This document shows, one piece after another, positions 610-17,201 of a stretch of DNA of 20,000 nt. Location: IMG/VR virus record IMGVR_UViG_3300035698_005365; one strand, written 5' to 3'. This DNA is from an uncultured virus (IMG/VR IMGVR_UViG_3300035698_005365) (Duplodnaviria; Heunggongvirae; Uroviricota; Caudoviricetes). The position numbers were made by a program, and so were the translations under genes. The notes beneath the pieces were generated by a model. The model saw only the letters and a program-made list of their open reading frames with translations, searched no databases and had not been told where the DNA came from. The first letter of the stretch is position 1, and each line of letters begins with the position of its first letter.

Positions 610-610
610 A

Positions 611-3590: not shown

Positions 3591-4568
3591 CTATTTCGAT
3601 AATAGTGAAAACCCTTTAATTGTTGGGACACCTGCCGCTGGACTACCAGTAGCTGCAGTTATCTTTACTAATACTCGAGTGGGCTCACTTGTAAATGCTG
3701 TGAAATCACTAATCTCTGGAGCTGTTCGCATACAGTTTAACCATCCACTATCCTCACTAACATTTTGTAATTTATATTCTATATTTGCACCATCTTCCCA
3801 TGTTTCAAGTAATGGTACTCCAATTGCTGAAGATACTGTAGATCCAAGGGTTCCTGTTGGAATATCATGCCAGACTGTTCCATCCGATCCAGCAGTAGTT
3901 GTTGTATATTCTAAACTCCAATATAAATGATTTACGGAAGTGCCCGGGGCAATAGTATTTAATGCTAATCTAACTCCGGAACATGATGTTCCAATAGCAG
4001 TTGTCCCAGTAGCATTCCATAATTGAGTTGTACCATGACTACCAACAAATCCATATGCATCCCAAGAAGATCCATTATATGTATCTATTGCAAGCGATCC
4101 ACTAGTCATATTGACTGCAGATACACTATCTGTTCTAACACGCCATCTAACATCTAATACACTTTTAGTTGATCCAAAAAAATAACCTATTGATGTTGAT
4201 TTTGTTCCGGCAGTAACTACTTCTACGGCAGCGGTCGAATCATTAAAATCTGCAATCCATGTTGGATTTTGCATAACATTAGGATCATATAAAGAATTAT
4301 AATCAGTTGACAACGCACTAACACCTATACCATAATGGTCTGTTGAAAATAACGCTGTTGTTGATCCAGCATTTACAGTATTTTTTCTACCAGAGGCATC
4401 TATATATGCTTCTGCCCACATATCAATAAACCCAGTGGAAATATCTACATCACGGTCTTGTAATTCTCGAATTAAATTTAATCCATTTACAGTATAACAT
4501 ACACTAAAGTTATCATTCAACTGTGTTGATAATAAAGTCGCACGTCTTTTAAAGTCTTCTAATCCCAT
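3591..4568 (-). CDS. Putative tail fibre / receptor-binding or baseplate-associated virion protein
   Basis: N-terminal 'STQLNDNF' resembles fibre anchor peptides. S/T/G-rich beta-sandwich-like body. Located at the distal end of the tail module. Confidence 0.55.
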   Translation of the reverse strand: MGLEDFKRRATLLSTQLNDNFSVCYTVNGLNLIRELQDRDVDISTGFIDMWAEAYIDASGRKNTVNAGSTTALFSTDHYGIGVSALSTDYNSLYDPNVMQNPTWIADFNDSTAAVEVVTAGTKSTSIGYFFGSTKSVLDVRWRVRTDSVSAVNMTSGSLAIDTYNGSSWDAYGFVGSHGTTQLWNATGTTAIGTSCSGVRLALNTIAPGTSVNHLYWSLEYTTTTAGSDGTVWHDIPTGTLGSTVSSAIGVPLLETWEDGANIEYKLQNVSEDSGWLNCMRTAPEISDFTAFTSEPTRVLVKITAATGSPAAGVPTIKGFSLLSK

Positions 4569-4602
4569 TTTTATCTCTTATTATTATAATTATATTTTAT
4601 CC

Positions 4603-4610
4603 TTTATAAA
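4603..4610 (-). promoter_or_regulatory. Putative TATA box (TTTATAAA)
   Basis: Intergenic octamer about 35 nt upstream of ATG 4568, the same spacing as the boxes at 1694 and 16283. Confidence 0.4.
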
Positions 4611-4612
4611 TA

Positions 4613-6028
4613 TTATTGTTTTAAACTATATGCTATTTCCAATGAAAAGATTTTTGCACCATTCATCCCATCTACAAATAGGTATCCCTCATTGCTATCA
4701 TTAGATATAGTCAATAAAGATCCAATTTGATTACTGGATGTTTGCTGAAAATTAATAACTGACCCAGCCCCCGACCCAAAATAATAACCAATAGATCCAG
4801 TCTGTGTTATATTTTCAGTTGAAATGATTTTAGATCCACTTATTAATGATGTATCATATATGTTAAATGAATCAATATCTCTTTCAATCCAGATTGGATT
4901 TGAGGAGCCAATAGCTATCCCAGATCCAATAATACTTGTTGATCCAGTGGCTAAAGTATGTTTTATTATATAGGATGATCCGTTATAATTTGGATTAATA
5001 TTATATGCTGTGGTTTCATTACTTTCAAAAATAGGTCCAAACACATTTGCTGTCACATCATTTTCAGCATCTATATAATATGTATAAGAATCCTTTTTGG
5101 GTTTATCATAATATGTATAACTTCCAAGATTGATATATGGAGTTGAACCAACGGTATCTAATGATGATGAATAATAGACACTTTGACCATTAGTATTTAA
5201 ATTTAAATAATCATTAATTCCTAGGTATGAATCTGCTCCAGCTTTAAAAATAATTTTACCACTCCCAAGTGGTGATGTAATATCTTGAAAATCTAGAAAG
5301 TATCCACTGCCTAAATCCGTGGCATCTTGTATATAAATCTTTTTATAATCTAACCTTGTATCAACTAAGATATTAAGATAGCTACCAGTATAAAACGATC
5401 CAGTTGTATTTAATTCTGTATGAACTCCACTACTAACCTTATTAAATGATATACTACTTCCTAAGTTTAAATAGTAATGATTATTACTATCTTCATAATT
5501 AAAATATAAACTTCCAGCGGTCTTTAAATGATCATATCTAAATGTTGTTTTAAATAAATAATTATTTGCAACATTAAGTTCACTAGATCCACCAGTTAGA
5601 ATATAATTACTAAAGTCTTTATTATTTGGGGCACTGATATCTCTAGCTAGATATGTATCATTCGATACACTAAGCCCTGTCTCTTGTCCAAAAAACATAG
5701 TATCTAGGTATACGCTACCAGTGGATAATCCACCAACGCTTAAATCAAATGATATAATTGAACCTATATCTGGGGCACCCGTCAAGGTACTACCTATTGA
5801 TGATAGATTAAATCCAAACGATATTGGAATTGTATAATCAATAGAGCTCCCAATGTCTGTATTTAGATTAACTACAATGCTGCCAGAATCACCATTAGAT
5901 GTATATACTATATGTAAAAGCGATGTATCAATAGATCCTATATTTTGAAACTGTGCCTGAGAGACTGACTCACCATTTCCTAATTTCAACATTTCTGTTC
6001 CTTGCACTATTGGGGTTATTTTAATCAT
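4613..6028 (-). CDS. Virion structural protein, beta-rich (possible lectin-like central domain), extremely GS-rich
   Basis: 471 aa, S/I/N/T/Y-rich. 24 Gly-Ser dipeptides by manual count. Lies in the tail-tip/fibre region. Confidence 0.6.
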   Translation of the reverse strand: MIKITPIVQGTEMLKLGNGESVSQAQFQNIGSIDTSLLHIVYTSNGDSGSIVVNLNTDIGSSIDYTIPISFGFNLSSIGSTLTGAPDIGSIISFDLSVGGLSTGSVYLDTMFFGQETGLSVSNDTYLARDISAPNNKDFSNYILTGGSSELNVANNYLFKTTFRYDHLKTAGSLYFNYEDSNNHYYLNLGSSISFNKVSSGVHTELNTTGSFYTGSYLNILVDTRLDYKKIYIQDATDLGSGYFLDFQDITSPLGSGKIIFKAGADSYLGINDYLNLNTNGQSVYYSSSLDTVGSTPYINLGSYTYYDKPKKDSYTYYIDAENDVTANVFGPIFESNETTAYNINPNYNGSSYIIKHTLATGSTSIIGSGIAIGSSNPIWIERDIDSFNIYDTSLISGSKIISTENITQTGSIGYYFGSGAGSVINFQQTSSNQIGSLLTISNDSNEGYLFVDGMNGAKIFSLEIAYSLKQ

Positions 6029-6112
6029 TATTATTCACGTATACTTAAAATGTTATATTCTTTTAATACCGATGATGAACACGGCTTTTGTATTTATTGT
6101 CATAATTATTTA

Positions 6113-6370
6113 CTACTCCTTTTTTATAACAGATATCACTTCAATTTTACCATCAGTTTTTATTTTTCTTACTTCACATGGTTTCCCAGTATCGTCTTTT
6201 ACATGGTCGCCATCAACTATGATACCTTTAGGAGAAGTAAATTTTTCTTTATATTCTCCATATAGCGTTTCAGCTTCAGCATCTGTAGTAACATTTAGTC
6301 TGACCAAATTAGCTATTTCTGTTTGTAAATCTGTGTTTTCTTCTTTGATTTCTAAGTATTTGTGTACCAT
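6113..6370 (-). CDS. Small hypothetical protein (85 aa), possible fibre-assembly accessory
   Basis: AAGGA RBS upstream, charged composition, directly downstream of the LamG gene. Confidence 0.65.
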   Translation of the reverse strand: MVHKYLEIKEENTDLQTEIANLVRLNVTTDAEAETLYGEYKEKFTSPKGIIVDGDHVKDDTGKPCEVRKIKTDGKIEVISVIKKE

Positions 6371-6382
6371 TTTTGTTTTTCC

Positions 6383-7087
6383 TTAATCATACTTTAATGC
6401 TGCTCCTGAGTCATATAAATCTGTGATTTCTCCTGGTGTAAGTGTTTTGTTGGAAAGATAAATTTCATCCATCATCCCATCATAATAATCACCGAATCCT
6501 TTAGAACCCATATATGATGTTGTCTTCTGTGCTGCAAAGTTTGTTACTGTTGAATCTGTGTCAATTGATGTTCCGTCCTTATATAAAATCCACCCATTAA
6601 CCGTATTATAGGTTATACTATACATTCTCTTTGTCGTTGATAAAGATGAATCGCTAACCTTTACAGTCCATGCCCCCTGATTGCTTCTTACTTCTAGTGT
6701 TCCCGACAAGATTCTTAATTGTATTGACCCATAATCGTCTCCGAATGGTGCCCAAATATATGCTTCCGTTGATGTATCATCCGTTTGCATCCAGAGATTG
6801 ATTGAAAAATTATTATTAACTGTTGTAACTATTAAATCGCCAGGGAGTGTTGTTGTGTCATTCGTTCCATCGAATCCCCTTCCGAAATTTAATTGCCCAG
6901 TCACCTGTGTCGTGCCTATATTAGTCCCGTTGTTGGCAGAAACCTCATCGACTATACTTGATGTTTCCATCTTAGAATACCAGACTAAGCCAGTTGATAG
7001 TGTCGGATGTGTTACTATTGAGTCCCAACTACCAGAAGATATTTTCTGACCTGATGCGACAATTCCAACTGAAAATGGTGATATCAT
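6383..7087 (-). CDS. LamG / concanavalin-A-like lectin domain protein (receptor-binding candidate)
   Basis: GLVWYSKME, GRGFDGTND, FSINLWM, WILYKDG and YYDGMMDEIYLSNKTLTPGEITDLY match the Laminin_G_3 pattern. Confidence 0.88.
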   Translation of the reverse strand: MISPFSVGIVASGQKISSGSWDSIVTHPTLSTGLVWYSKMETSSIVDEVSANNGTNIGTTQVTGQLNFGRGFDGTNDTTTLPGDLIVTTVNNNFSINLWMQTDDTSTEAYIWAPFGDDYGSIQLRILSGTLEVRSNQGAWTVKVSDSSLSTTKRMYSITYNTVNGWILYKDGTSIDTDSTVTNFAAQKTTSYMGSKGFGDYYDGMMDEIYLSNKTLTPGEITDLYDSGAALKYD

Positions 7088-7750
7088 TTATGCAGCCTCT
7101 AAATCTCCTGAGAGAATCCACTCGTCTGTCCCTAATTTCAATAGCGAACATGATGTATATTGTGCTCTCATTAGCAATGTTTGTGGTGTCCTGATTGTTA
7201 CCCCAGCTCCTGCCGTTATTGTAACTTGTCCAGCTCCAAGCTGACTAATTAAAATTGACGTTCCTGTTACAAACGCTACCGAACTATTAGGTGGGACTGT
7301 TAATGTTGAAGCTCCCGCATTGTTCATTGTAACTGGTTCTGATTTGTCTCCGGCTACCAATGTATATGATGTCCCTGTTTGCGTATTTATTGTGAATGTG
7401 TCTGCTGCCTTAGCATTAAGCTGTGTTTGAATTGCACTTGTTACGCCATTAACATATTCTATTTCTGCTGCCGTTGTAGTTGCTACTGCTACAAAACCAC
7501 TGCCATCTGAAACTAATGCACGAGATACTGTGGTGGCTGCCAATTTATTTAAAGCTATAGCTGCAGCAGCTTTAATGCTTGCATTAGCTAAATTTGTAAT
7601 AGCGTTGCCAGTTCCATCCTCATTTATTGTCTTGTTTGTTAATGTTGCCGTACCAGCTGCAGTAATCCGCGTCTTCTGGTCAGCAACGTGAGTATTCCAT
7701 TCTGATGAACTTAACTCACTTCCTATTCCTTTATTATCGTCCCAGGCCAT
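7088..7750 (-). CDS. Tail fibre-like protein
   Basis: TLTNKTI and 'EIEYVNGVTSAIQTQLNAK' shaft motifs, plus the common phage C-terminal domain NTQTGTSYTLV...GAGQVTI...EWILSGDL. GGTGAT RBS at 7754-7759. Confidence 0.8.
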   Translation of the reverse strand: MAWDDNKGIGSELSSSEWNTHVADQKTRITAAGTATLTNKTINEDGTGNAITNLANASIKAAAAIALNKLAATTVSRALVSDGSGFVAVATTTAAEIEYVNGVTSAIQTQLNAKAADTFTINTQTGTSYTLVAGDKSEPVTMNNAGASTLTVPPNSSVAFVTGTSILISQLGAGQVTITAGAGVTIRTPQTLLMRAQYTSCSLLKLGTDEWILSGDLEAA

Positions 7751-7794
7751 ATTATCACCATATTATTTATTTTTTATTCTTGTTTGTTTTATTA

Positions 7795-8136
7795 TTAAAA
7801 TGTTGTTGGGAATGTCCATGGGAATATTGCAGAGCCTGTTATAGGTTCGGTATTTGATCCACTTGTTACAAAACTTCCGCTTCTAATTAAAGCATCATCC
7901 CATGTTTCTATATTTGATGTAAATTCTGATAAAACATATGTATTATTATTATCAGTATATGATTGATATTCCGCACTATGAGGGCTTCCGGAAAAGTAAT
8001 CAATAACTATATTTGAAGCGCTACCAATATTAATATCAGCTATTAACTGTATTTCACTTACAGATAATAGAGATCCTGCGGGAGACATATTGTTTTTAAC
8101 AATAGGGCCAACTAAATTTGGTATTCGGTTTGTCAT
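7795..8136 (-). CDS. Small tail-tip virion protein
   Basis: Tightly packed in the tail module. Ends in FPWTFPTTF, an FPxTFP-type motif seen in phage tail proteins. 6 GS dipeptides. Confidence 0.55.
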   Translation of the reverse strand: MTNRIPNLVGPIVKNNMSPAGSLLSVSEIQLIADINIGSASNIVIDYFSGSPHSAEYQSYTDNNNTYVLSEFTSNIETWDDALIRSGSFVTSGSNTEPITGSAIFPWTFPTTF

Positions 8137-8139
8137 TAT

Positions 8140-8487
8140 TTATGGAAATAAAATGCTTCCGTCCGCAGCATTCTGACTCATTATGGTAAATCTATCATTT
8201 GTAAAATTTGTAAAAAATTTATTTAATGAATTATATACAATGAATAAATTTTCAGTTTGTTCGTAGTCGGACCCAATCTTAACAACATCTAATTGTCCAT
8301 TTACTGGATCATCTAATATGAAGGCGTTATTCTTAAGATTTTTAAAAATTTTAAACCGCGTATCAATAATCTTTAATGATTCTCTAGTAAATGTAATTCT
8401 TGGAACACTTGACGTTCCTCCCTGAAACTGTAATCTAGTATTATAATTTTGCTGACTTTGCTTTCCTAATGAAACTCCTAATGGCAT
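8140..8487 (-). CDS. Small tail-tip virion protein
   Basis: TAATG coupling with the hub gene, GGTGAG RBS at 8494-8499. FILDDPVNGQLD motif resembles those of viral tail proteins. Confidence 0.55.
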   Translation of the reverse strand: MPLGVSLGKQSQQNYNTRLQFQGGTSSVPRITFTRESLKIIDTRFKIFKNLKNNAFILDDPVNGQLDVVKIGSDYEQTENLFIVYNSLNKFFTNFTNDRFTIMSQNAADGSILFP

Positions 8488-9914
8488 TATAATCTCACCG
8501 CCTTCTCTTCTGTCAATTCAACCTTATCATCTTGTTCGTATTGAAGAAGAGTTGTCCACCCTCCAGTAATTGTAAACCGGTGCCGAACATTTACTAGTCG
8601 TTGATTCACAGATAAGTTTGATAATGGATAAAAAATATTAGTAACATTCCCAGGAATATATGTATTTGCTCCAGGAAATACACTCTTATCAAATTTTCTT
8701 CTATTTTCTGATTCCATTTTTAATTGATCATTACCTATTTCTTGTGCACGAGCAACTGCCTGATCCTTGATTTTTTCTGAATATTCTCTATCATTACTAA
8801 CGGCGGCAGTTACCCCATTGAATATATACAATGCCCCATTAACAGTAACGTCCTCGCCTATCATTGTCCATGGATACGCACTAGGAAAACCATCTACTTG
8901 AATACTTTCTCCAGAATTTCTATCGGCTCCATGATTAATCTCTTTATCTATGATTTCTTTTGCAATATCCATCATTGGTATAAACTTCCATTTTGGACCA
9001 TTCTTAATAAATGATTCTGCATTAATGACAAATGTTGGAGCATCTGAACCATCTGGAACAATGCCCGCATTTATAATATATGCATTTATTACATTATTAT
9101 CTTGTCGCAATGAATCATCGTTATAATCATCTTCAACAATAGCATCTAATGCAACATATGTTTTAAATTTCCAAGCTAACTCATTATTATTATTTATACT
9201 AGTAATATATGTTCCAGCATCGCTATCACCAGTAAAAGATACTAATGATAATTCTTCTATATGCTGGTGAAGTGGCCTATATCCTTTGTTAAAAGAAACT
9301 GTTGGAAACTCAGTTCCATCTGATCGCGTATCTACTATAAATCCACCATTACTTTCAAGAGCAGCAGATAATTGTAGCGCCGAGTTGGCTCCTATAAATT
9401 GGTTTGCAGTTTGAACTAATTCTATTATAAAATCATTAACTTGTTGTCTAATTTCTGAACCAGATACAACCCCCATAAGGGCTGGAGTAAGTGCTGATAA
9501 TAATAACTCACTTCGATCTACGCCCTTAATTTTAAATTCTTTTTTTGAGTTAGAAACTTTTAGATCTACACTTTGAACAATTCCATCCATTAAAAGCGCA
9601 TCGGTTTCAAAATCTAGTGGCTTACTACCATACCATGCATATATTTTAATTCTATCTCCCGAACGAATAGGAGTTGTATCACCTGGCGAAAATAAAGTGT
9701 CGGTATCATATTTAATAGCTAATGCTCCAGTATTTGTTATTTGAGTTTCGTTAAGCTGTGTTGGAAATAAATTAAACTCAAAGGTATCACGTCTAGCTTC
9801 AATCCCTTTTTGAATATCAAGAGTATTAAAATTAGATATAGGTCGAGGACTTGTCTCATACGTATTATCACTAATACGTTTGAATAGTTTTATTTCAACG
9901 CGTGGATTAAGCAT
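8487..9914 (-). CDS. Baseplate hub / Tal-like (T4 gp27-like fold) protein
   Basis: DTFEFNL...GDRIKIYAWYG...LLMDGIVQSVD...IKGVD at the N-terminus and PGNVTNI...LVNVRHRFTITGGWTTLL at the C-terminus are typical of hub proteins. Position after the tape measure gene fits. Confidence 0.75.
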   Translation of the reverse strand: MLNPRVEIKLFKRISDNTYETSPRPISNFNTLDIQKGIEARRDTFEFNLFPTQLNETQITNTGALAIKYDTDTLFSPGDTTPIRSGDRIKIYAWYGSKPLDFETDALLMDGIVQSVDLKVSNSKKEFKIKGVDRSELLLSALTPALMGVVSGSEIRQQVNDFIIELVQTANQFIGANSALQLSAALESNGGFIVDTRSDGTEFPTVSFNKGYRPLHQHIEELSLVSFTGDSDAGTYITSINNNNELAWKFKTYVALDAIVEDDYNDDSLRQDNNVINAYIINAGIVPDGSDAPTFVINAESFIKNGPKWKFIPMMDIAKEIIDKEINHGADRNSGESIQVDGFPSAYPWTMIGEDVTVNGALYIFNGVTAAVSNDREYSEKIKDQAVARAQEIGNDQLKMESENRRKFDKSVFPGANTYIPGNVTNIFYPLSNLSVNQRLVNVRHRFTITGGWTTLLQYEQDDKVELTEEKAVRL

Positions 9915-9915: not shown

Positions 9916-10284
9916 TTAATTTGCGGTTATTATAACTTCCCCTTGGACTGTGATGGAGAATAAATTATTTTTACTTCCTAATACTGATAAATTAATTGAT
10001 TCTAATATTCCGGATCCAATAGTGTCACCATTTGTAAATCCAAATGATTTAATATAACTACCATTAATATCGCTTGAGGCAAGCACCGTAGTAAATTTAG
10101 AGTTTGAACCAGACTGCGACCAAGTTAAAGGCGTCCTAATAAATTCAGTTATACTGGTTAGGTCTTCACTACCACTCACTGTTGTAATTTCAGTTGTTCC
10201 AAAATATAGATTATCTGGTGTTAGCCCACCGACATTTCTTACAAATTTTTGTAATTCACCTATACCTAATTCTATATATGTCAT
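9916..10284 (-). CDS. Small baseplate protein, tail-collar/fibre N-terminal-like domain
   Basis: YFGT...TEFIR...KFTTVLASSDINGSYIKSFGF...SKNNLFSITVQGEVII resembles stand-alone DUF3751-like domains. AAGGAG RBS. Confidence 0.55.
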   Translation of the reverse strand: MTYIELGIGELQKFVRNVGGLTPDNLYFGTTEITTVSGSEDLTSITEFIRTPLTWSQSGSNSKFTTVLASSDINGSYIKSFGFTNGDTIGSGILESINLSVLGSKNNLFSITVQGEVIITAN

Positions 10285-10859: not shown

Positions 10860-12434
10860 TTATTCCTCTTGTTCTTGAAGTGACGTTATCTGTGCAAATA
10901 ATGCCTCATTATTTTCTTTAACAGTCGTCTCAAGGATCCCAATTAGTTCATCTGTAGTTCCTAGACTAGATACCTGCATCTCGTTTAATATATTATAGTT
11001 ATTTACTTGTCCTGCTGGCGGTACAACAGCTGATGTCCCTACACTTGCAACACTACTAACCCTATTATTAAATCGATCAGCCTGTGTAAACTTATCAATT
11101 TTATCAAACATGTTACCAAACTCATCTGCCCCTAAAAATTTAAGACTAAGTTTATCTTGTAGGCCTTGTAATTTATCTAACTGATTATCCTGAAAGTCGG
11201 TTGATATATCTATCCCTGGAATTTTATTTAAAAGTTTAATTATACCACGAACGGCACCAACCATTAACTTTGATGCATTAAAAACTAAATCTTTAACTAC
11301 ATTAACTGCGAAAAAGAACACGTTAACAATTGCTCCAGCTAACCCAGCAATTATTTTATATATAAATGAAAAGAAATTACTAGATAGTTGCATTAGTCCT
11401 TGAACTATTAAATCAAAATCTCCTGTGAAGATACCTTTTATTACATTAAATATACCAGTAAAAAATCCTTTTAAATTTCCAAATATTGATTTAATAAATT
11501 CCCATATCCCTGCAAAAGTATTTTTTACAAAGTCTCTAAAACTACCAAGGTCTGTTACCCATAATACAATAAGAGCTGCAAGAACTGCTGCAAATATTAA
11601 TACGCCAGATAAGGTAATACCTGAAAATATTCCAGCCATTGCAGTCTTAAGCCATGGAGCAGTAACTCCTAGGATACGCATTGCACCGAATAATGTTAAT
11701 AATGATAATGTCATCTGACCAACTGTTTGACCAATGATTCCAATTATAAGTCCCCATTTAATTAATGAGCCAGTTAATTCTTTATTGTTATTTACCCAAG
11801 TGGATACCTTCATAATAACATCTATTAACCATGAAACGAAGCCTGACTCTACTAGGGCTTCACCTACTAAGAATTTTAAAAATGTAAATGATGCTCCAAG
11901 GCGAGCAACCTCTTGATTCAATACATTAGTCTCTCCAGCAATCTGAGAGAATGTTGATAGGCCTGCTTTAGCTATTGATTGAAATACTCTACTGATAGCC
12001 ATGCCTGTAAACATCATAGATAGGCCCATACCAAGGATTCCTGCTTCGAGATTCTTTATACCCTTCATCCGCTTCTGTTCTGTTTTTTGTACTTTGACTT
12101 GCTGGCGTTCATAGGCAGCTGTCGCCTCTGCACTAGTATGAGTTACCCTAGTTAATTGTTCTTGTGCCTCTTTATATTCTTTTGAACCCTTTCTAGTTTT
12201 GTTCATAACATCTTGGAGGCCTCTAGTAACACCTAAAAATCGATCTGATGATAAACCAGCAGCATCCATTCTACTTGCCATTTGATTAATAGCATTAGAT
12301 CCACCTAGACTTGTATTAAATTGTTTAATACTATCACCAAGTTTCGCAATTTTCTTTTCGCCCTTCTTGAGCTTTGGAGACATTAAATCCGTAAGTTTTA
12401 ATAAGATGTTAACTGTTTTTGAATTATTTGCCAT
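10860..12434 (-). CDS. Tail tape measure protein
   Basis: N-terminal VNILLKLTDLMSPKL, coiled-coil region, hydrophobic helices and F/W-periodic amphipathic repeats (FAGIWEFIKSIFGNLKGFFTGIFNVIKGIFTGDF). Follows the chaperone genes. Confidence 0.9.
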   Translation of the reverse strand: MANNSKTVNILLKLTDLMSPKLKKGEKKIAKLGDSIKQFNTSLGGSNAINQMASRMDAAGLSSDRFLGVTRGLQDVMNKTRKGSKEYKEAQEQLTRVTHTSAEATAAYERQQVKVQKTEQKRMKGIKNLEAGILGMGLSMMFTGMAISRVFQSIAKAGLSTFSQIAGETNVLNQEVARLGASFTFLKFLVGEALVESGFVSWLIDVIMKVSTWVNNNKELTGSLIKWGLIIGIIGQTVGQMTLSLLTLFGAMRILGVTAPWLKTAMAGIFSGITLSGVLIFAAVLAALIVLWVTDLGSFRDFVKNTFAGIWEFIKSIFGNLKGFFTGIFNVIKGIFTGDFDLIVQGLMQLSSNFFSFIYKIIAGLAGAIVNVFFFAVNVVKDLVFNASKLMVGAVRGIIKLLNKIPGIDISTDFQDNQLDKLQGLQDKLSLKFLGADEFGNMFDKIDKFTQADRFNNRVSSVASVGTSAVVPPAGQVNNYNILNEMQVSSLGTTDELIGILETTVKENNEALFAQITSLQEQEE

Positions 12435-12449
12435 TTACTATTTCTCCCA

Positions 12450-13147
12450 TTATTTCTTTTTACTAGCTTTCTTTTCTGCTGTTTTATATTCCTTATCTTC
12501 AATCTGAATGAGGTAACATAATTGGAAAAACTGTGGTGTTACAAAATTATCTGACCAAAAATCTTCTAATCTGTATGATTTAAATTGCCGTATCATACGA
12601 TAAATAATCCTTGCAATATTTTCTTCATTACTGGATGATGTGCCACCAGTATTTTGGTTAGTGACCTTATGTCGGATGCCACCAGCCCAAGACATAGCCT
12701 CCTTTTTAGTTTCCGGAACTTTCCCGGTAACTAATTTGGGGAGCCACCCGCCTTAAACACTTCAAGGGCTGCCTTATCTTTATCAGTTGAAGCCTTCTCT
12801 TTATTATCCAAACCATTGACCTTTAAAATACTATCAGTTATACTCATAATATTATTAAAACTCATATCATCAATAATATCATTAAGTTCACTATCACTAT
12901 ATTCTGAATATGAAAGTTTTAATGTTTGATAAATCATATCTTGCATACTCTTAGCTTGCTGTAGCGTTGCGGCTTCTTTATCCTCTGTACCATCTGCATT
13001 CAAAAACTTCTTATCATATTTTTGTGTAATATCTACATATGTTTTAAATGGAAGTGGTTTAATATGAATCACCATATCACCATCATCTGATTGTAGTGTG
13101 ATATCGTTTCCACGACCTCGTAGTTTTCTTAAATCTATATTGCTCAT
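12450..13147 (-). CDS. Tail assembly chaperone GT (-1 frameshift fusion, about 232 aa)
   Basis: A -1 slip at C CCA AAT continues LVTGKVPETKKEA into MSWAGG... (the 12450..12695 ORF) with no stop codon. Confidence 0.82.
12706..12740 (-). promoter_or_regulatory. Programmed -1 ribosomal frameshift signal (slippery heptamer + stimulatory hairpin)
   Basis: The mRNA reads C CCA AAU (12740-12734), UAGUUA spacer, then CCGGGA-AAG-UUCCGG. The stem can be extended by UUAGUU/AACUAA. Confidence 0.82.
12731..13147 (-). CDS. Tail assembly chaperone G (138 aa)
   Basis: Lies between the tail tube and tape measure genes. IHIKPL...acidic helical pattern. Ends at a slippery heptamer. Confidence 0.85.
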   Translation of the reverse strand: MSNIDLRKLRGRGNDITLQSDDGDMVIHIKPLPFKTYVDITQKYDKKFLNADGTEDKEAATLQQAKSMQDMIYQTLKLSYSEYSDSELNDIIDDMSFNNIMSITDSILKVNGLDNKEKASTDKDKAALEVFKAGGSPN

Positions 13148-13149
13148 TT

Positions 13150-13506
13150 TTATTCCTCTTGAGTTTGTTCCCCAAACCCTTTAAACTTACGCTCTTCTTG
13201 CTCTGCTGTATTTACTGCTTGCTTATGTACAATAACTTTTAATGTATCAATCTCTCCTTCGAGATGTGCGATATATTGTTTAATATCTTCTAATTGATTA
13301 ATAAAAGTAAACATCTGAGTGTGCATCTCATATGTATCTATTAACTTTAATAGTGCTGCCGGATATAAATCTCCAGCCTCTCTTAAAGCAAAATCTTTAA
13401 ATTTATCATAGATGACCTTCGGACACCTTGTTATTTTAAATTTAATCTTTCGTTGTTCGTCAATTTTATCTCTAAATTCACCAGCATTTAATGGGCTCTC
13501 TTCCAT
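13150..13506 (-). CDS. Hypothetical protein, ribbon-helix-helix-like N-terminus + coiled coil
   Basis: Start corrected to ATG 13506 (AGGTGA RBS at 13515-13520). KFKITRCPKVIYDKFKDFA...YPAALLKLID fits a strand-helix-helix pattern, followed by heptads (LEDIKQYIAHLEGEIDTL). Confidence 0.6.
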   Translation of the reverse strand: MEESPLNAGEFRDKIDEQRKIKFKITRCPKVIYDKFKDFALREAGDLYPAALLKLIDTYEMHTQMFTFINQLEDIKQYIAHLEGEIDTLKVIVHKQAVNTAEQEERKFKGFGEQTQEE

Positions 13507-13529
13507 TTTTGTTTTCACCTTGTTATATT

Positions 13530-13556: not shown

Positions 13557-13569
13557 AAAAATTATTTAC

Positions 13570-14175
13570 TTACCACTTAGCCACACTTGTATACGAACCA
13601 ATAGCCATTAATTCACTTCCAGCGTTTGGAGCCTTCTCTTGAATACGTAAGTTACCAGCACTTGTTTCATCAGTTGGAGGGACTGTAAATGTAATAGTTC
13701 CTTTCAAATATCCTTCTGAATCCATCTCTGGTTCAAATCCTGTCAAGTTTGCATCTGCGTAAATAACACGGAGTGCATTTCCTGTTCCAGAAATTGATCC
13801 TGTAGCTAAACTAGCTTCATCAGAAATATCAGAACCTGAAACAATAGTATTTGAATCTCGAACTAGTACAGTAATTCTATAGTCATCCTGCGCTGATCCT
13901 GATGTAAAGTCGCTTCCTGTTCCACCGTGAAACATTCTATACCACTGAGCGTTTGAAATAGAAACATCGAATGCTACTTCTCCATCTTCTTGTGGTTGTG
14001 AGAATTTTACTTTTGCGTTACCGAAATATGGAACTGTTTCAACTGGACGTCCGAAGCCTGATTCAGACCATGAACTAATTTGCGTTGTAACTGTTAATCC
14101 GCTTCCCAAATCATCTTGCTTTGCAATTTCTATTAATGCAAGATCTGGAAAATATGGTTGTGTATTTATTGTCAT
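13570..14175 (-). CDS. Major tail tube protein
   Basis: 201 aa beta-rich protein with ISSWSESGFGRPVETVPYFG, GEVAFDV and GYLKGTITF. Sits before the chaperone/TMP genes, has a strong AAGGTGAT RBS and is followed by a terminator. Confidence 0.8.
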   Translation of the reverse strand: MTINTQPYFPDLALIEIAKQDDLGSGLTVTTQISSWSESGFGRPVETVPYFGNAKVKFSQPQEDGEVAFDVSISNAQWYRMFHGGTGSDFTSGSAQDDYRITVLVRDSNTIVSGSDISDEASLATGSISGTGNALRVIYADANLTGFEPEMDSEGYLKGTITFTVPPTDETSAGNLRIQEKAPNAGSELMAIGSYTSVAKW

Positions 14176-14188
14176 ATAATCACCTTAA

Positions 14189-14740
14189 TTATTTTTTGAT
14201 TGCAGCATCAACTGCCGCATCTATTTTCTCGTCTAAATTACGAGTGTGCTCATCTAAAGCACGTTCCATATAACGGACCCCGTTAATAAATTGTGGATTA
14301 CTCCATAGTGATTTGGAACTTAATCCTCGACCAACATGAATTACATTACCAGTACGTATTGGAACATATGTACCAGATCCTTCTATTCTTGAGACCCAAT
14401 TTCGTAATGAGCCTTTTACACTACGGGTTACCCCGCCTTGAATTCCTTCTTTACTTTCAATTTCAGCAGCGTACTTAGCGGAAGGACCACTAACAAATAT
14501 CTGCCAACTACTAGTTTCTTTTTTTGCAGTAACTCGCTTCCCACGAATATTTGCTACTAAGGCACCTGTTGAACCTGGGGAATCAACCATTGCTATTTCT
14601 ACATTTCTTTTTGCCGTTATCTGCACATCGCGTGCAAGCTTCGACATTACTTTACTAACATTTCTATTGGTTCGGATGCCTAATGTTTTTAAATAATTGG
14701 TAACATCTTTTGAATCTACTATTACTTTAATCATGAACAT
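14189..14740 (-). CDS. HK97 gp10-like neck / tail-completion protein
   Basis: AKRNV...STGALVANI...AKYAAEIE...GVRYMERALD is the typical gp10-like pattern. Basic protein. Confidence 0.75.
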   Translation of the reverse strand: MFMIKVIVDSKDVTNYLKTLGIRTNRNVSKVMSKLARDVQITAKRNVEIAMVDSPGSTGALVANIRGKRVTAKKETSSWQIFVSGPSAKYAAEIESKEGIQGGVTRSVKGSLRNWVSRIEGSGTYVPIRTGNVIHVGRGLSSKSLWSNPQFINGVRYMERALDEHTRNLDEKIDAAVDAAIKK

Positions 14741-15213
14741 TCTCTCCGCGCAAATGATACGGGAAGGAAGCCCCTTAATAAACTAGGCCGGTCTGGATCT
14801 TTTTCGACTCCACTAAAGGATCCGAAGTGTGGAGAATTTAAACCGAAGGGTAATGTATTTCCTTGTCGGAGTGCATCTATTAAAGTACCAGTAAGCCACT
14901 GTTCTACAAAGGCCTCGTTTCTAACACTGCCTGCTGTTGAATAAAATTGATCTTGATTTGATTGTGCCGTATAGAACCAGATGTTAAAAATAATATCTGT
15001 ATCATATGGTTTAGGATCTCCAAAATAATATGTATTTGGTTCTTGGTCAATAGACTGAATGAAGACCTTTGGAAACTTACCTGAGCCTTTTCTTAATTCT
15101 GTGAATGCAAAATCATCTGTGCCGCGGGTTGCTGTAGCTAATGGATCTACTACTGAGCCCGCATTGATATAATCTACCAATAGCTTCTTCGCTTCATAAT
15201 TGCTTAATACCAT
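14731..15213 (-). CDS. Tail terminator-like protein
   Basis: FPKVFIQ...DIIFNIWFY pattern of SPP1 gp17 / lambda gpU-like proteins. ATG 15213 preceded by GGTGGGTG (alternative GTG start at 15219). Confidence 0.6.
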   Translation of the reverse strand: MVLSNYEAKKLLVDYINAGSVVDPLATATRGTDDFAFTELRKGSGKFPKVFIQSIDQEPNTYYFGDPKPYDTDIIFNIWFYTAQSNQDQFYSTAGSVRNEAFVEQWLTGTLIDALRQGNTLPFGLNSPHFGSFSGVEKDPDRPSLLRGFLPVSFARRECS

Positions 15214-15281
15214 AGACACCCACCAGGGATTTAGGAGATTCTCCCGAATCTAATTCTATATTTTATATACCTATTAATAAG

Positions 15282-15881
15282 TTAATAGGTATTCCAAAAG
15301 TTTTGCTCGACTGCACGACCTCTTCGAGGATCGTACTGTTCGTAGCTTGATGAACGAAGTAAACCTTCACCGCCTTTGGATAATGTGCTACCAATCGTTT
15401 CAATCTTCATACGAATGAATTGAAGCCGAGTGTTTGTTGTTTCTTCACCTGAAAAAACATATAATTGATCTAGTACCTGCTCTGCTGCTCGGTACGTTGC
15501 GTACTTGTGAAATATGTATGGAGTATATTCAATCGTCATGCGGCCGCCGTCACTTCCTGTAACTAAGCTGCCCCCTATCGTAATTGCTCCATTGTTTAAG
15601 TCTGATATGTAATTAGTTTCGCCGGCCCCAACTGTTATTGCCGCCCCATCTATTTCTACATTCTCTACTGCAAATATCTTACGCTTATATTCATCTAATA
15701 CATATGTACTACTGCCTGAACTAATATAAGTTTCTACTTTTGTAATTGGCCGTCCATATAAGTCATATATTTCATCTGAGTTATCTGCGATAGCTTGATT
15801 TATATCAGTATCACTAATCTCGTCATTCCTAACACCTGCAAACTGTTTGACTAAATCAATTGTTGTTAAATTGTATGGCAT
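15282..15881 (-). CDS. Head-tail adaptor (SPP1 gp15 / HK97 gp6-like) with inserted beta domain
   Basis: N-terminal LTTIDLVKQFAG...ISDTDINQAI...EI helices, a beta insertion (VENVEIDG...GAITI...IEYT) and C-terminal helices. Confidence 0.7.
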   Translation of the reverse strand: MPYNLTTIDLVKQFAGVRNDEISDTDINQAIADNSDEIYDLYGRPITKVETYISSGSSTYVLDEYKRKIFAVENVEIDGAAITVGAGETNYISDLNNGAITIGGSLVTGSDGGRMTIEYTPYIFHKYATYRAAEQVLDQLYVFSGEETTNTRLQFIRMKIETIGSTLSKGGEGLLRSSSYEQYDPRRGRAVEQNFWNTY

Positions 15882-15892
15882 ATTAAATCACT

Positions 15893-16249
15893 TTATAAAT
15901 TATCTGATACTGAGGATTCTACATTTAAAGTTCCATCAGCATGGATTACATCTCTAGTATGATTACGTAATTCATATGGTGCCCCAGTTAAAGCTACTGA
16001 AACCATAGGCGCATTAGCAGTTATGGTTATTAACATAGATGAACCAGTATAGTCTGTGGTTATGCTACCACTTGTTGTAGTAAAATCATAAACCTCGATT
16101 CCACTTTCATTGACAACCCGCATGGCCCATGTATCGGTGCTCCAATCTATTGCACTGCCAGCATCGCTGACTGCGAAGACTAGGTCTCTACGGCTATATT
16201 GTTTTAAATTAATATTGATGTCTGAAGGCAGACTTGATACGGTTACCAT
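15893..16249 (-). CDS. BppU-N/Ig-like virion protein
   Basis: DININLKQ...DAGSAIDWS...AMRV...ITITA...YEL...GTLNV matches a widespread phage Ig-like/BppU-type domain pattern. Confidence 0.65.
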   Translation of the reverse strand: MVTVSSLPSDININLKQYSRRDLVFAVSDAGSAIDWSTDTWAMRVVNESGIEVYDFTTTSGSITTDYTGSSMLITITANAPMVSVALTGAPYELRNHTRDVIHADGTLNVESSVSDNL

Positions 16250-16282
16250 TTTTGTTCTCTATTTATGTATTTTAAATTATAG

Positions 16283-16298
16283 TTTATAAACGTTTCGG
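16283..16298 (-). promoter_or_regulatory. Archaeal-type promoter (BRE + TATA)
   Basis: Minus strand reads CCGAAACG-TTTATAAA, about 34 nt upstream of ATG 16249. Confidence 0.65.
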
Positions 16299-16299
16299 T

Positions 16300-16584
16300 T
16301 TAACAACAACACAGTGGTGTTGCAGTCGCTTCACTTATAGTTAAAACTCCAGTAGCACTCATTATACTTAATGTGTCTGATACGCTAGTAATTGTTAAGG
16401 TTCCTGTTGGATCTGCGATTGTTAATTCCGCCGTAGCGGTTGATACTGTTAATACTGCTTCTGCGCATGACATAGTTAATACCGCCTGTGGAAAACATAT
16501 CCTTCCTCGAATAAATTCAAGAACATGGATGCCTTCATAGTGTAATTGTTGAAAAAGCTGTACTAGCCTTCTGAAAATCATCAT
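16300..16584 (-). CDS. Small protein with six 9-aa beta repeats and C-terminal Cys-Cys-Cys
   Basis: QAVLTMSCA/EAVLTVSTA/TAELTIADP/TGTLTITSV/SDTLSIMSA/TGVLTISEA, then TATPLCCC*. ATGA overlap with the upstream gene. Confidence 0.65.
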   Translation of the reverse strand: MMIFRRLVQLFQQLHYEGIHVLEFIRGRICFPQAVLTMSCAEAVLTVSTATAELTIADPTGTLTITSVSDTLSIMSATGVLTISEATATPLCCC

Positions 16585-17201
16585 TCGTCTCGACTCACAA
16601 TTTTACTGAATGTTCTTGTTTGAGAATCCAGCAACGTGCTCACGACTGCTATTACTGCCTCCCCATCAGTAATTCTATTTGTACCCTCATCATATTTAAG
16701 GACACCTGTACTTGCCACCTCGGCCATTGCCGTCGATGGTATTAGACTAGTTCCATCAGCTCGCTTAATAACTTCTATAAATGGTGAACCAACATTGGAA
16801 GTTACAATCTGCCCATTCTTAAACCATGTTACTGTATACTCATCTGTTGAACTTACATCATCTATGGTTAAATGAATATCTGCAAGATATATATTTAAAT
16901 CGGAGCCCAATTGAATTTCATTGATAATGGTAGAGTCCATACTTGTGACACCCGCGCTAATATCTGAAACATTATATGTATATCTATCTAATGCTGAAAG
17001 GCCTACCCCACCATCTGCTCTAAATGAATATGTTTTAGTTTGGTCTTCTGTGAAATCAAATTTATAAAGACCCGACCCAACCTCAGTCATTGAGGAGCCG
17101 TTAACAACTACTGCATCTGTATCTCCTTCCCATACTATGATAGATGGAGTGAGTCCTTCGCTAGGTTGTCCGTTATCTGTAAATGATGAAAATATTAACA
17201 T
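16581..17201 (-). CDS. Virion protein with two tandem Ig-like domains
   Basis: Duplicated motif: DNGQ...TPSI...MTEVGSGLYKFD and KNGQ...SPFI...MAEVASTGVLKYD. Confidence 0.6.
   Translation of the reverse strand: MLIFSSFTDNGQPSEGLTPSIIVWEGDTDAVVVNGSSMTEVGSGLYKFDFTEDQTKTYSFRADGGVGLSALDRYTYNVSDISAGVTSMDSTIINEIQLGSDLNIYLADIHLTIDDVSSTDEYTVTWFKNGQIVTSNVGSPFIEVIKRADGTSLIPSTAMAEVASTGVLKYDEGTNRITDGEAVIAVVSTLLDSQTRTFSKIVSRDE

What the first reader, a model, noticed from the sequence alone, without database searches (positions are those of the whole stretch)
3591..17201. Virion-wide Gly-Ser motif enrichment: candidate virus-encoded virion O-glycosylation system
Seen (manual counts of GS dipeptides): 24/471 aa (4613-6028, about half of its Gly residues), 8/325 (3591), 6/113 (7795), 5/122 (9916), 6/188 (Dit-like), 7/201 (tail tube), 4/162 (terminator), 4/199 (adaptor), 3/118 (BppU-like), 4/206 (Ig-like). 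By contrast there are 0 in the glycosyltransferase, 1/450 in the phosphoesterase, 1/138 in the chaperone and 4/524 in the buried tape measure. The motifs are dispersed rather than in linkers, take many preceding residues (I/L/T/S/A/V/N/F-GS) and use diverse codons (GGA TCT, GGT AGT, GGC AGC, GGT TCA, GGG AGC), so selection acts at the protein level. Established: some mycobacteriophages glycosylate capsid and tail tube serines with their own glycosyltransferases, and chloroviruses glycosylate their capsid with virus-encoded enzymes. Inference: x-G-S is an acceptor sequon evolved across unrelated surface-exposed folds, giving a glycan-coated virion, with the nearby GT4 as part of the machinery.
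Basis: partly seen in the sequence, partly recalled or inferred. Interest (0 to 1): 0.88.

Follow-up and report, generated by a model that had tools for sequence, protein, structure and literature searches.

The report
Gly-Ser excess in phage tail proteins
About a dozen neck, tail and baseplate proteins of this uncultured phage carry Gly-Ser pairs roughly three times more often than chance, a real and unusual lineage trait that may be either a preferred way of building loops or a tag for an attached sugar, which sequence alone cannot decide.

Summary
Across the 20 ORFs between 3591 and 17201 (4291 aa), GS occurs 89 times against 34.9 expected (O/E 2.55). None of 500 shuffles reached 89.

The signal is protein-level and Ser-specific. 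It uses 21 codon pairs, mixing TCN and AGY. GT is 1.15, GN 0.60, GD 0.80, GK 0.24 and SG 1.35.

Seven unrelated phage loci give 0.82-1.17, including glycosylated Che8 and a phage with a distant homolog of the GT.

The excess is not virion-wide. Twelve proteins carry it (76 vs 23.6). Four other beta-rich virion proteins do not (20 vs 20.7).

All 14 members of the tail-tube family are GS-rich (99 vs 31.6). Their main sites are largely fixed, and Ser is replaced mainly by Ala or Gly.

The core shared by the clade is [ST]-G-S (4.1x here, 3.2x in relatives).

The link to the neighbouring GT4 rests on adjacency only. My reading:
- lineage-specific loop or strand-entry building block, about 0.45
- modification tag such as O-glycosylation, about 0.3

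This scan has noted similar Ser-Gly and [ST]-G-S excesses on other phage DNA.

The parts
584..1690 (+). GT4-family glycosyltransferase (368 aa), 0 GS.
   Evidence: phrog_2170 at E 6e-42 over the full length. PF20706, PF13692 and PF00534 score above their cut-offs. The best PDB sequence hits are Gtf1/GtfA at 2.6e-5 and PimA at 2.6e-4, which is generic. GS 0 vs 1.24.
1908..3260 (-). T5 A1-like 'DNA transfer' / metallophosphoesterase protein (450 aa), the last gene of the minus-strand block. Not GS-enriched.
   Evidence: phrog_1745 at E 1.8e-105. tblastn finds it in 1132 phage records. GS 1 vs 2.12.
3591..4568 (-). 325-aa distal tail protein of unknown family, GS-enriched.
   Evidence: GS 8 vs 3.21, p 0.007. 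No PHROG or Pfam family.
4613..6028 (-). 471-aa near-orphan distal tail protein and the strongest case: half of its Gly residues precede Ser.
   Evidence: GS 24 vs 6.83, p 0.0002. It has only one credible relative, P0015, at 29% identity over residues 297-467, which shares G350-S351, G374-S375, G398-S399, G411-S412 and G436-S437. The fold attempt failed at pLDDT 29.5. The Atlas gives only weak ConA-like beta-sandwich leads.
6383..7087 (-). 234-aa protein with a Laminin_G_3 / ConA-like lectin domain. Not enriched.
   Evidence: PF13385 at E 3.8e-12. GS 3 vs 2.75.
7088..7750 (-). 220-aa fibre-like virion protein. Not enriched.
   Evidence: phrog_18179 and phrog_8780. GS 2 vs 1.55.
7795..8136 (-). 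113-aa small baseplate-region protein, GS-enriched.
   Evidence: GS 6 vs 1.05, p 0.0006.
8140..8487 (-). 115-aa small protein with a mild excess.
   Evidence: GS 2 vs 0.55, p 0.095.
8487..9914 (-). 475-aa large tail-tip protein, so called from its position downstream of the Dit-position gene (role inferred). Not enriched.
   Evidence: GS 3 vs 2.15. Its homolog in L004 is 25% identical and shares no GS site.
9916..10284 (-). 122-aa protein, GS-enriched.
   Evidence: GS 5 vs 1.84, p 0.02. Two of the 5 sites are shared with the L004 homolog.
10290..10856 (-). 188-aa protein in the Dit position directly after the tape measure (role inferred from position). GS-enriched.
   Evidence: GS 6 vs 1.11, p 0.0004. 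The L004 homolog (23% identical) has 1 GS and none is shared.
10860..12434 (-). Tape measure protein (524 aa). Not enriched.
   Evidence: phrog_28 and phrog_58. GS 4 vs 3.48.
12731..13518 (-). Two chaperone-position proteins (138 and 122 aa). Not enriched.
   Evidence: GS 1 vs 0.61 and 0 vs 0.04. The role is inferred from their position between the tube and the tape measure.
13570..14175 (-). Tail tube protein (201 aa), GS-enriched. GS starts at residues 24, 87, 93, 114, 126, 186 and 193.
   Evidence: GS 7 vs 2.29, p 0.002. The model has pLDDT 75.9. Foldseek gives probability 1.0 and VIA Z up to 10.2 against siphophage tube proteins. The 14 homologs together have GS 99 vs 31.6.
14189..14740 (-). 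Tail completion / Neck1-like protein (183 aa) with a mild excess.
   Evidence: phrog_5 at E 1.3e-6. GS 3 vs 1.48, p 0.17.
14731..15219 (-). 162-aa neck protein, GS-enriched.
   Evidence: GS 4 vs 1.04, p 0.0098. Three of the 4 sites are shared with the L003 homolog at 36% identity.
15282..15881 (-). Head-tail adaptor-like protein (199 aa), GS-enriched.
   Evidence: phrog_442 at E 1.5e-5. GS 4 vs 1.36, p 0.033. The L003 homolog (27% identical) also has 4 GS, none at the same place.
15893..16249 (-). 118-aa protein, GS-enriched.
   Evidence: GS 3 vs 0.81, p 0.034.
16581..17201 (-). 206-aa protein with a mild excess.
   Evidence: GS 4 vs 2.06, p 0.13. No family found.
17548..19998 (-). Gly-rich protein of at least 816 aa (134 Gly) whose 5' end runs off the window. 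Not enriched.
   Evidence: GS 12 vs 14.29. No PHROG, Pfam or NCBIfam family.

Best explanation
The excess is a real trait of this phage lineage, selected at the protein level. The short pattern [S/T/I/L/A]-Gly-Ser-x-hydrophobic is used again and again as the loop-to-strand junction in about a dozen beta-rich neck, tube and baseplate proteins. There it takes the place of the Gly-Asn, Gly-Asp, Gly-Lys and Gly-Gly pairs that other phages use. On this reading Gly supplies the backbone freedom, the small Ser fits and caps the junction, and no chemical modification is needed.

Shown: the excess, its specificity for Ser, its conservation in relatives, and its loop location in the tube model.

Inferred: that its role is structural rather than a modification site. 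Why this lineage prefers Ser remains unexplained.
For: 1. Fixed sites. In 14 tube homologs at 42-71% identity, G24-S25 is present in 13, G87-S88 in 14 and G93-S94 in 13. The latter two lie in an invariant block G87-G93 (GSDFTSG, within TGSDFTSGS), which looks like a structural element rather than a free acceptor loop.

2. Substitution pattern. At the seven major tube sites, Gly is kept in 88 of 98 cells and Ser in 77 of 98. Ser is replaced by Ala 10, Gly 3, Thr 3, Leu 2, Asp 1, Asn 1 and Tyr 1. This is a small-residue pattern, not a hydroxyl pattern.

3. Location. In the tube model (pLDDT 75.9), all 7 GS lie in loops, short turns or the first residue of a strand. None is inside a strand (my reading of its DSSP line).

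4. Sequence context. GS-x-[ILVFY] is 43 vs 10.5 (4.1x) in the window and 29 vs 13.7 in relatives.

5. Depleted alternatives. Other G-x pairs are depleted (GN 0.60, GD 0.80, GK 0.24, GG 0.58) as if replaced.

6. Distribution. The excess is absent from the tape measure and chaperone-position proteins (5 vs 4.5), which I take to be helical, and from the alpha/beta enzymes.

7. Indirect tests of the sugar reading gave no support. Che8, reported to be glycosylated (passage in PMC11256854), has GS O/E 1.05. Grayson, with a GT homolog, has 0.97 in its structural genes.
Against: No structural rule I know explains why Ser is preferred over Asn, Asp, Thr or Lys after Gly. Nor does one explain why this holds only in this lineage, or across unrelated folds. 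The genome is AT-rich (GC 0.31-0.41), which should favour Asn and Lys.

Four other beta-rich virion proteins (1745 aa) show no excess (20 vs 20.7).

Some sites turn over while density is kept:
- adaptor, 4 vs 4 with none shared
- Dit-position protein, 6 vs 1
- variable tube loop, GS in all 14 homologs at shifting places, 37 vs 10.8

The beta-propensity of GS flanks (1.07/1.09) is barely above that of other Gly positions (1.04/1.06), so a specific hairpin geometry is not demonstrated.

No coordinates were available, so backbone angles and burial were not measured.
Confidence: 0.45

Rival explanations
1. GS, with its clade-shared core [S/T]-G-S, is an acceptor tag for a post-translational modification of virion proteins. 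The most plausible form is cytoplasmic O-glycosylation of Ser by the neighbouring GT4. A host enzyme or another phage enzyme could act instead.
For: A fold-independent, lineage-specific and Ser-specific motif is what a trans-acting reader would produce (GS 2.55 vs GT 1.15).

The excess is confined to virion proteins. The three non-virion proteins have 1 vs 3.6, and if they shared the 2.55x excess the chance of 1 or fewer would be P=0.001.

Density is kept in the variable, low-pLDDT and indel-rich tube loop in all 14 homologs (37 vs 10.8). Sites turn over in the adaptor.

A GT4 gene lies 218 bases from the end of the structural block.

NCBIfam names its SdgA model a serine-aspartate repeat adhesin O-glycosyltransferase, and GtfA/B add GlcNAc to Ser/Thr in serine-rich repeats (PMC6973325 passages).

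TibC modifies Ser and not Thr (PMC4358343 passage).
Against: There is no chemistry.

The GT matches only generic GT4 models. GtfA scores 33.6 bits against a cut-off of 574.6 and SdgA 25.3 against 800. No further domain was detected in Pfam.

The GT is on the opposite strand. It could equally modify DNA or a host glycan (my inference).

Grayson, with a 26%-identical GT, has no excess. Che8 has none.

Four exposed beta-rich virion proteins lack the motif.

Ser is swapped for Ala or Gly rather than Thr, and two sites sit in a 9-residue invariant block.

Many sites in the 471-aa protein are flanked by hydrophobic residues.
Confidence: 0.3
2. The excess reflects a physico-chemical selection on exposed loops of a long-lived extracellular particle, with no dedicated reader enzyme. 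Examples are flexible small-residue loops, or avoidance of Lys, Asn and Asp next to Gly for resistance to proteases or chemical decay.
For: GK (0.24), GN (0.60), KS (0.53) and NS (0.45) are depleted along with the GS gain.

The virion set is richer in Ser (9.8%) and Thr (9.2%) and poorer in Lys (5.0%), Arg (3.2%) and Glu (4.8%) than the pooled controls.
Against: NG (1.12) and DG (1.08), which I recall as the classic decay-prone pairs, are not depleted.

A Baltic Flavobacterium phage shows no such pattern (0.94).

This reading does not explain GS over GT or GA, or why four beta-rich virion proteins are exempt.
Confidence: 0.17
3. The excess is an artefact of composition, repeats, paralogy, a DNA motif or wrong gene calls.
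For: None found.
Against: G-x-S is only 1.2, GG 0.58 and SS 0.93, so Gly and Ser are not simply co-located.

There is no paralogy at E<0.1 among the window proteins and no regular spacing of GS.

Only one short DNA tandem repeat was found.

21 codon pairs are used, and GATC-containing GGA-TCN pairs make up 25 of 89.

The ORFs have homologs, family matches or a confirmed fold.
Confidence: 0.02

Closest known systems
Virion glycosylation of mycobacteriophages (Che8 and relatives) by phage-encoded glycosyltransferases (Freeman et al. 2023, Cell Host Microbe). That paper is not held. I saw only citing passages in PMC11256854 and PMC12582341.
   Same: It is also a tailed phage that carries its own glycosyltransferase gene. 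Capsid proteins are reported to bear covalently attached glycans (passage in PMC11256854).
   Different: Che8's first 30 kb, which holds the structural genes, shows no GS excess (77 vs 73.5). I recall, from no call here, that its sites are few and near C-termini. I found no sequon-like dipeptide enrichment in print for any phage. The GT here is a single GT4 with no close relative in 50,697 cultured phage records; the best is 29% identity over part of its length.
Cytoplasmic Ser O-glycosyltransferases acting on short Ser-containing repeats: GtfA/GtfB on serine-rich repeat adhesins (PMC6973325 passages) and SdgA (the NCBIfam NF047880 name).
   Same: These are enzymes of the kind this GT weakly resembles. 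They add a sugar to Ser before export at many sites per protein. The window's GT has them among its best PDB and NCBIfam hits.
   Different: The scores are far below the family cut-offs (33.6 vs 574.6 bits, and 25.3 vs 800). PimA scores nearly the same. GtfA works with GtfB through a DUF1975 domain, and neither a partner nor such a domain was detected here. As I recall, their substrates are disordered repeats, whereas the GS sites here are dispersed in folded beta-rich proteins.
Bacterial autotransporter heptosyltransferases (TibC/AAH) on TibA and AIDA-I (PMC4358343, eLife 2014; passages read).
   Same: There is multi-site glycosylation of a beta-rich protein in which Ser, and not Thr, is modified. 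This matches the Ser-only character of the motif here.
   Different: The mapped TibA sites are Ser followed by Gly or Ala (S313 in NSGG, S322 in TSAA), not Gly-Ser. The enzyme is an iron-finger dodecameric heptosyltransferase. The GT here matched only GT4-type Pfam models.
Gly-containing tight turns and bulges of beta-rich proteins (type II' turns with Gly then Asn/Ser/Thr, G1 bulges). This is textbook protein structure recalled from memory, from no call here.
   Same: Gly followed by a small polar residue at a loop-to-strand junction. All 7 tube sites lie in loops or at strand edges.
   Different: As I recall, general turn statistics favour Asn, Asp, Thr and Lys as well as Ser. Here only Ser is used and the others are depleted. 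Seven other phage loci show no such preference.

Membership tests
Phage-encoded virion O-glycosylation system (Che8 type) | The phage carries its own glycosyltransferase gene(s) | tested here: met
   One GT4 gene at 584-1690 (phrog_2170 at E 6e-42; PF20706, PF13692 and PF00534 above their cut-offs).
Phage-encoded virion O-glycosylation system (Che8 type) | Glycans covalently attached to capsid or tail proteins | not testable with these tools
   This needs mass spectrometry or glycan staining of the proteins. The phage is uncultured.
Phage-encoded virion O-glycosylation system (Che8 type) | The GT and the acceptor motif co-vary among relatives | tested here: inconclusive
   The records behind the related loci are not held. 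No GT relative is in IMG/VR. A distant GT homolog in phage Grayson comes with no GS excess (27 vs 27.8), but at 26% identity its specificity need not be the same.
GT4 glycosyltransferases (for the gene at 584-1690) | Match to GT4 / Glycos_transf_1 models above the curated cut-off | tested here: met
   PF20706 scores 47.8 bits (cut-off 26), PF13692 45.5 (27) and PF00534 42.5 (26.4).
GtfA-type or SdgA-type protein Ser O-GlcNAc transferases | Reaches the NCBIfam equivalog or exception cut-off | tested here: not met
   TIGR02918 GtfA scores 33.6 bits vs a cut-off of 574.6. NF047880 SdgA scores 25.3 vs 800.
GtfA-type or SdgA-type protein Ser O-GlcNAc transferases | DUF1975 substrate-binding domain and a GtfB partner (PMC6973325 passage) | tested here: inconclusive
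   The Pfam scan at E<=0.01 reported only GT4-type domains. No second GT-like gene is in the window, but the window is only part of the genome.
Bacterial autotransporter heptosyltransferases (TibC/AAH) | Iron-finger dodecameric heptosyltransferase, with acceptor Ser in repeats of a beta-helix | tested here: inconclusive
   No protein in the window matched anything other than GT4-type models among glycosyltransferases. I ran no dedicated BAHT model. The mapped acceptor contexts are Ser followed by Gly or Ala, not Gly-Ser.
Tail tube protein fold (for 13570-14175) | Structural match to solved siphophage, myophage or Hcp tube proteins over most of the chain | tested here: met
   Foldseek gives probability 1.0 and 23 matches at E<=0.001, all tube-type chains in the listing. 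VIA Z is 10.2 (rmsd 4.2, 138 aligned) to 9jgh and 9.5 to YSD1. The model has pLDDT 75.9.
Defined beta-turn or bulge classes (type II' turn, G1 bulge) | Backbone angles and hydrogen bonds of the class at the GS positions | not testable with these tools
   Only the DSSP string of the model is returned. It shows all 7 sites in loops or at strand edges, but gives no angles.

The most novel reading that the evidence does not exclude
[S/T]-Gly-Ser (more broadly x-Gly-Ser-x-hydrophobic) is a true acceptor tag read by a phage-encoded cytoplasmic Ser O-glycosyltransferase, the GT4 at 584-1690. That enzyme decorates the tube, neck and inner baseplate proteins with sugars while leaving the receptor-binding fibres bare. 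This would be the first sequon-defined virion glycosylation system in a phage outside the actinobacteriophages. Together with the similar Ser-Gly and [ST]-G-S excesses that this scan noted in other uncultured phages, it would hint that glycan-coated tails are common in environmental phages.
Probability: 0.2. Interest if true: 0.85.

Novelty: new variant of a known kind. Interest (0 to 1): 0.5.

Why it matters
A dipeptide used 2.5-3 times too often, across unrelated folds, in one phage lineage only, means that something selects for it.

If that something is an enzyme, the motif would be a readable tag. It would allow virion glycosylation to be predicted from sequence in uncultured phages. That bears on how phages evade recognition, on their stability and adsorption, and on engineering glycan-coated particles.

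If it is purely structural, it shows that lineages can evolve their own loop 'dialect'. That is a caution against reading motif enrichment as a sequon, and a useful marker for recognising distant members of this otherwise unannotated phage clade.

Either way the test is simple: co-express the GT with the 201-aa tube protein and measure its mass.

Tried and rejected
**Ideas tested and rejected**
- DNA-motif origin: codon pairs are diverse, with GGA-TCN only 25 of 89.
- Local Gly/Ser clustering: G-x-S 1.2, GG 0.58, SS 0.93.
- Repeats or paralogy: no window proteins are similar at E<0.1, GS spacing is irregular, and there is one 33-bp DNA repeat.
- A specific hairpin geometry: the beta-propensity of GS flanks is not clearly different from that of other Gly sites.

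**Searches and jobs that led nowhere**
- No whole genome is held.
- No match of the window or the tube among cultured phages.
- The window ends are absent from IMG/VR. The tube and its profile have no relatives there, and neither does the GT.
- The A1-like gene gave only two unrelated contigs, which I used as controls.
- The single genome-contig hit is a weak 75-residue match in a gut MAG, also used only as a control.
- The 471-aa protein had no hits in the word-index search and 3 in the exhaustive search, of which I judge one credible.
- The adaptor had no relative other than itself, so the turnover claim rests on one 27%-identical pair.
- The tube profile found no solved structure by sequence.
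- The 471-aa fold failed at pLDDT 29.5, and its secondary structure is not used.
- The partial GS-rich first ORF of L003 (7 vs 2.09) could not be identified as a capsid protein.
- The records behind L002-L004 are not searchable.
- Four Flavobacterium phages were among the GT matches; the two listed have 23% identity at E 3e-6, which I judged too weak to test.
- Freeman et al. 2023 is not held.
- Earlier-findings look-ups by place and by sequence returned nothing.

**Not attempted**
- Complex prediction of the GT with the tube, because the tool's own guidance says enzyme-substrate pairs are rarely informative.
- Sequencing-run and read-laying tools, because they do not bear on the question.

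Full report
**What the window is**

The minus strand from 19998 down to 1908 is one block of phage late genes. In order it holds:
- a Gly-rich protein of at least 816 aa
- small neck proteins
- a head-tail adaptor-like protein (phrog_442)
- a Neck1/tail-completion protein (phrog_5)
- a 201-aa tail tube protein
- two chaperone-position genes
- a tape measure (phrog_28/58)
- a run of unannotated baseplate and distal-tail proteins, including a LamG-domain protein and a fibre-like protein
- a T5 A1-like metallophosphoesterase (phrog_1745)

The tube assignment is confirmed by fold: model pLDDT 75.9 and pTM 0.75, Foldseek probability 1.0, and VIA Z 10.2 with rmsd 4.2 over 138 aligned residues.

A GT4 glycosyltransferase (584-1690) lies on the plus strand and converges on the end of this block.

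The phage is uncultured and isolated in sequence space. There is no DNA or tube match in 50,697 cultured phage records and none in IMG/VR. No whole genome is held, and the longest contig on record for its proteins is 21,687 bases.

Yes. Over the 20 ORFs lying within 3591-17201 (4291 aa), GS occurs 89 times against 34.9 expected from each protein's own composition. This is O/E 2.55 and z 9.2, and the next dipeptide is at z 3.2. None of 500 within-protein shuffles reached 89.

Six proteins are individually significant at p<0.01 and three more at p<0.035. The 115-, 183- and 206-aa proteins are not significant alone.

The signal is not made at the DNA level. 21 different codon pairs are used, with 53 TCN and 36 AGY serine codons.

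Nor is it Gly and Ser merely sharing loops. G-x-S is 42 vs 34.9, SG is 47 vs 34.9, GG is 0.58 and SS is 0.93.

It is specific to Ser. GT is 1.15 and GA 1.13, while GN (0.60), GD (0.80), GK (0.24) and GG are depleted.

There is no paralogy among the proteins and no regular spacing.

**Is it unusual?**

Yes. I applied the same mechanical ORF calling to unrelated phage DNA:

| Control locus | GS observed vs expected | O/E |
|---|---|---|
| lambda, first 25 kb (structural region) | 41 vs 43.8 | 0.94 |
| Che8, first 30 kb | 77 vs 73.5 | 1.05 |
| Baltic Flavobacterium phage, 50 kb | 59 vs 62.6 | 0.94 |
| L009 | 9 vs 10.9 | 0.82 |
| L010 | 23 vs 25.1 | 0.92 |
| L011 | 24 vs 20.6 | 1.17 |
| Rhodococcus phage Grayson, structural genes | 27 vs 27.8 | 0.97 |

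The chance that Ser follows a Gly is 0.26 here against 0.05-0.08 in the six controls tabulated. GS density is 2.07 per 100 aa against 0.35-0.79.

Seven controls are a small sample, and they were chosen by me.

**Where the excess is and is not**

I grouped the proteins after seeing the data:
- Twelve neck, tube and baseplate proteins carry 76 GS vs 23.6 expected (3.2x). Without the 471-aa protein this is 52 vs 16.8.
- The LamG protein, the fibre-like protein, the 475-aa tail-tip protein and the 816-aa Gly-rich protein together have 20 vs 20.7.
- The tape measure and chaperone-position proteins have 5 vs 4.5.
- The three non-virion proteins have 1 vs 3.6.

So the title 'virion-wide' overstates it. 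The most distal and probably most exposed proteins are exempt.

**Relatives**

The tube has 13 database homologs at 42-71% identity. All are GS-rich, pooled 99 vs 31.6.

Five metagenome loci encode relatives. Pooled over L002-L004, GS is 70 vs 49.7, and 1 of 300 shuffles reached it. The tripeptide [ST]-G-S is 30 vs 9.5 (0 of 300). The window has 30 vs 7.3 (0 of 500), and six control loci have 59 vs 42.9. [ILV]-G-S is enriched only in the window (27 vs 7.5). GS-x-[ILVFY] is 4.1x here and 2.1x in relatives.

I took the idea of testing the tripeptide from earlier notes of this scan on other phages. Those notes are unchecked and are not evidence.

**Conserved or turning over? Both**

In the tube alignment, G24-S25 (13 of 14), G87-S88 (14 of 14) and G93-S94 (13 of 14) are fixed. 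G87-G93 are invariant, forming the block GSDFTSG within TGSDFTSGS.

At the seven sites present in at least half of the homologs, Gly is kept in 88 of 98 cells and Ser in 77 of 98. The mean column majority is 67%. Ser is replaced by Ala 10 (7 of them at one site), Gly 3, Thr 3, Leu 2, Asp 1, Asn 1 and Tyr 1.

The one relative of the 471-aa protein, at 29% identity, shares five GS pairs in its aligned C-terminal part.

There is also turnover:
- The variable, indel-rich, low-confidence tube loop carries GS in every homolog at shifting positions, 37 vs 10.8.
- The adaptor pair has 4 and 4 GS with none shared.
- The Dit-position pair has 6 and 1.

These last two alignments are at 23-27% identity and may be inexact.

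**Structure**

In the tube model, all 7 GS lie in loops or short turns, or Ser is the first residue of a strand. None is inside a strand (my reading of the DSSP line).

No coordinates are returned, so I could not measure exposure, lumen versus outer face, or backbone angles.

The 471-aa model failed at pLDDT 29.5 and is not used.

A sequence-only test shows GS flanks only slightly more beta-like than other Gly positions. The picture of 'hairpin tips' therefore remains an impression from reading the sequence.

**The glycosyltransferase**

It is a bona fide GT4 of phage family phrog_2170.

Its best solved-structure matches by sequence are Gtf1/GtfA at 2.6e-5 and PimA at 2.6e-4. NCBIfam lists GtfA and SdgA among 17 weak hits, all far below their cut-offs. 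I read this as generic similarity of the nucleotide-sugar-binding half.

Its relatives in cultured phages are 23-29% identical. They sit in large Streptomyces and Rhodococcus phages and in a few Flavobacterium phages. IMG/VR holds no relative.

The only indirect co-variation test I could run, on Grayson, was negative. At that distance it is weak evidence.

Nothing else in the window relates to sugars.

**Weighing the explanations**

The structural reading fits:
- the fixed sites
- the invariant block
- the Ala/Gly substitutions
- the loop positions
- the absence from helical proteins

It does not explain why Ser alone is preferred, why only this lineage shows it, or why four beta-rich virion proteins are exempt.

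The tag reading explains:
- the Ser specificity
- the independence from fold
- the restriction to virion proteins
- the kept density in a variable loop

A candidate enzyme also lies next door. But this reading has no chemical support and only adjacency for the enzyme. It fits poorly with the Ala substitutions and with the bare fibres, unless receptor-binding parts are deliberately left unmodified.

I put the structural reading at 0.45, a modification tag at 0.30 (the GT4 specifically at about 0.2), other physico-chemical selection at 0.17, and artefact at 0.02.

**Comparison with what is known**

Mycobacteriophage virion glycosylation is the nearest published system. I saw only citing passages, because the primary paper is not held. 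Its supplements, which I could not see, may list acceptor sites that bear on this.

Che8 shows no dipeptide signal.

TibC/AAH modify Ser and not Thr, but at Ser-Gly or Ser-Ala contexts, and with a different enzyme type.

GtfA/B need a partner and a DUF1975 domain. Neither was detected here.

Four literature searches found no report of a Gly-Ser acceptor motif or of a dipeptide excess in phage virion proteins. They cover only the held library.

This scan has noted similar Ser-Gly and [ST]-G-S excesses on other phage DNA, with mixed readings.

**Verdict**

I rate it of moderate interest because a single simple co-expression and mass measurement would settle it.

Noticed in passing
window 17548-19998 (-), running off the window; L003:1556-7601: A Gly-rich protein of at least 816 aa (134 Gly, many GG/GxG runs) with no PHROG, Pfam or NCBIfam family sits upstream of the neck genes. 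The relative L003 has three large unannotated ORFs (570, 784 and 669 aa) in the same place. No capsid, portal or terminase gene is visible in the window.
   Followed up: partly
window 16300-16584 (-): A 94-aa ORF overlaps the end of the 206-aa gene by 4 bases. It carries repeated T/L/I/S-rich units such as '...LTI...' and ends in three Cys. It could be a real small protein or a frameshifted extension.
   Followed up: no
window 6029-6382: There is a 354-base gap in the minus-strand gene block. It holds only mechanical ORFs on both strands: 6072-6386 (+), 104 aa with 20 Ser, and 6113-6370 (-), 85 aa. It is unclear which, if either, is a gene.
   Followed up: no
window 1908-3260 (-): A T5 A1-like 'DNA transfer'/metallophosphoesterase gene sits at the end of the late structural block. 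Homologs at under 60% identity occur in 1132 cultured phage records of very different hosts (Vibrio, Salmonella, Flavobacterium, Caulobacter and others).
   Followed up: partly
window 5445-5506: A 33-base imperfect tandem repeat (1.9 copies, 81% matches) lies inside the gene for the 471-aa GS-richest protein.
   Followed up: no
L003:3-758 (+): A partial 251-aa ORF at the start of the related locus is GS-rich (7 vs 2.09) but matches no PHROG, Pfam or PDB sequence. By its position it could be a head protein, which would extend the excess to the capsid.
   Followed up: partly
tail tube family, alignment A1 (window 13570-14175): Two features are strictly conserved: a C-terminal motif ending in Lys-Trp (K200 and W201 in at least 90% of sequences) and an acidic block P61-Q62-E63-D64-G65-E66. 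These are likely subunit-contact elements of this otherwise unannotated tube family.
   Followed up: no
window 3329-3631 (-): A 100-aa ORF overlaps the start of the 325-aa gene by 41 bases. It is hydrophobic and rich in Trp, Lys and Met, so it may be a small membrane protein (holin-like position before the A1-like gene). No family was found.
   Followed up: no
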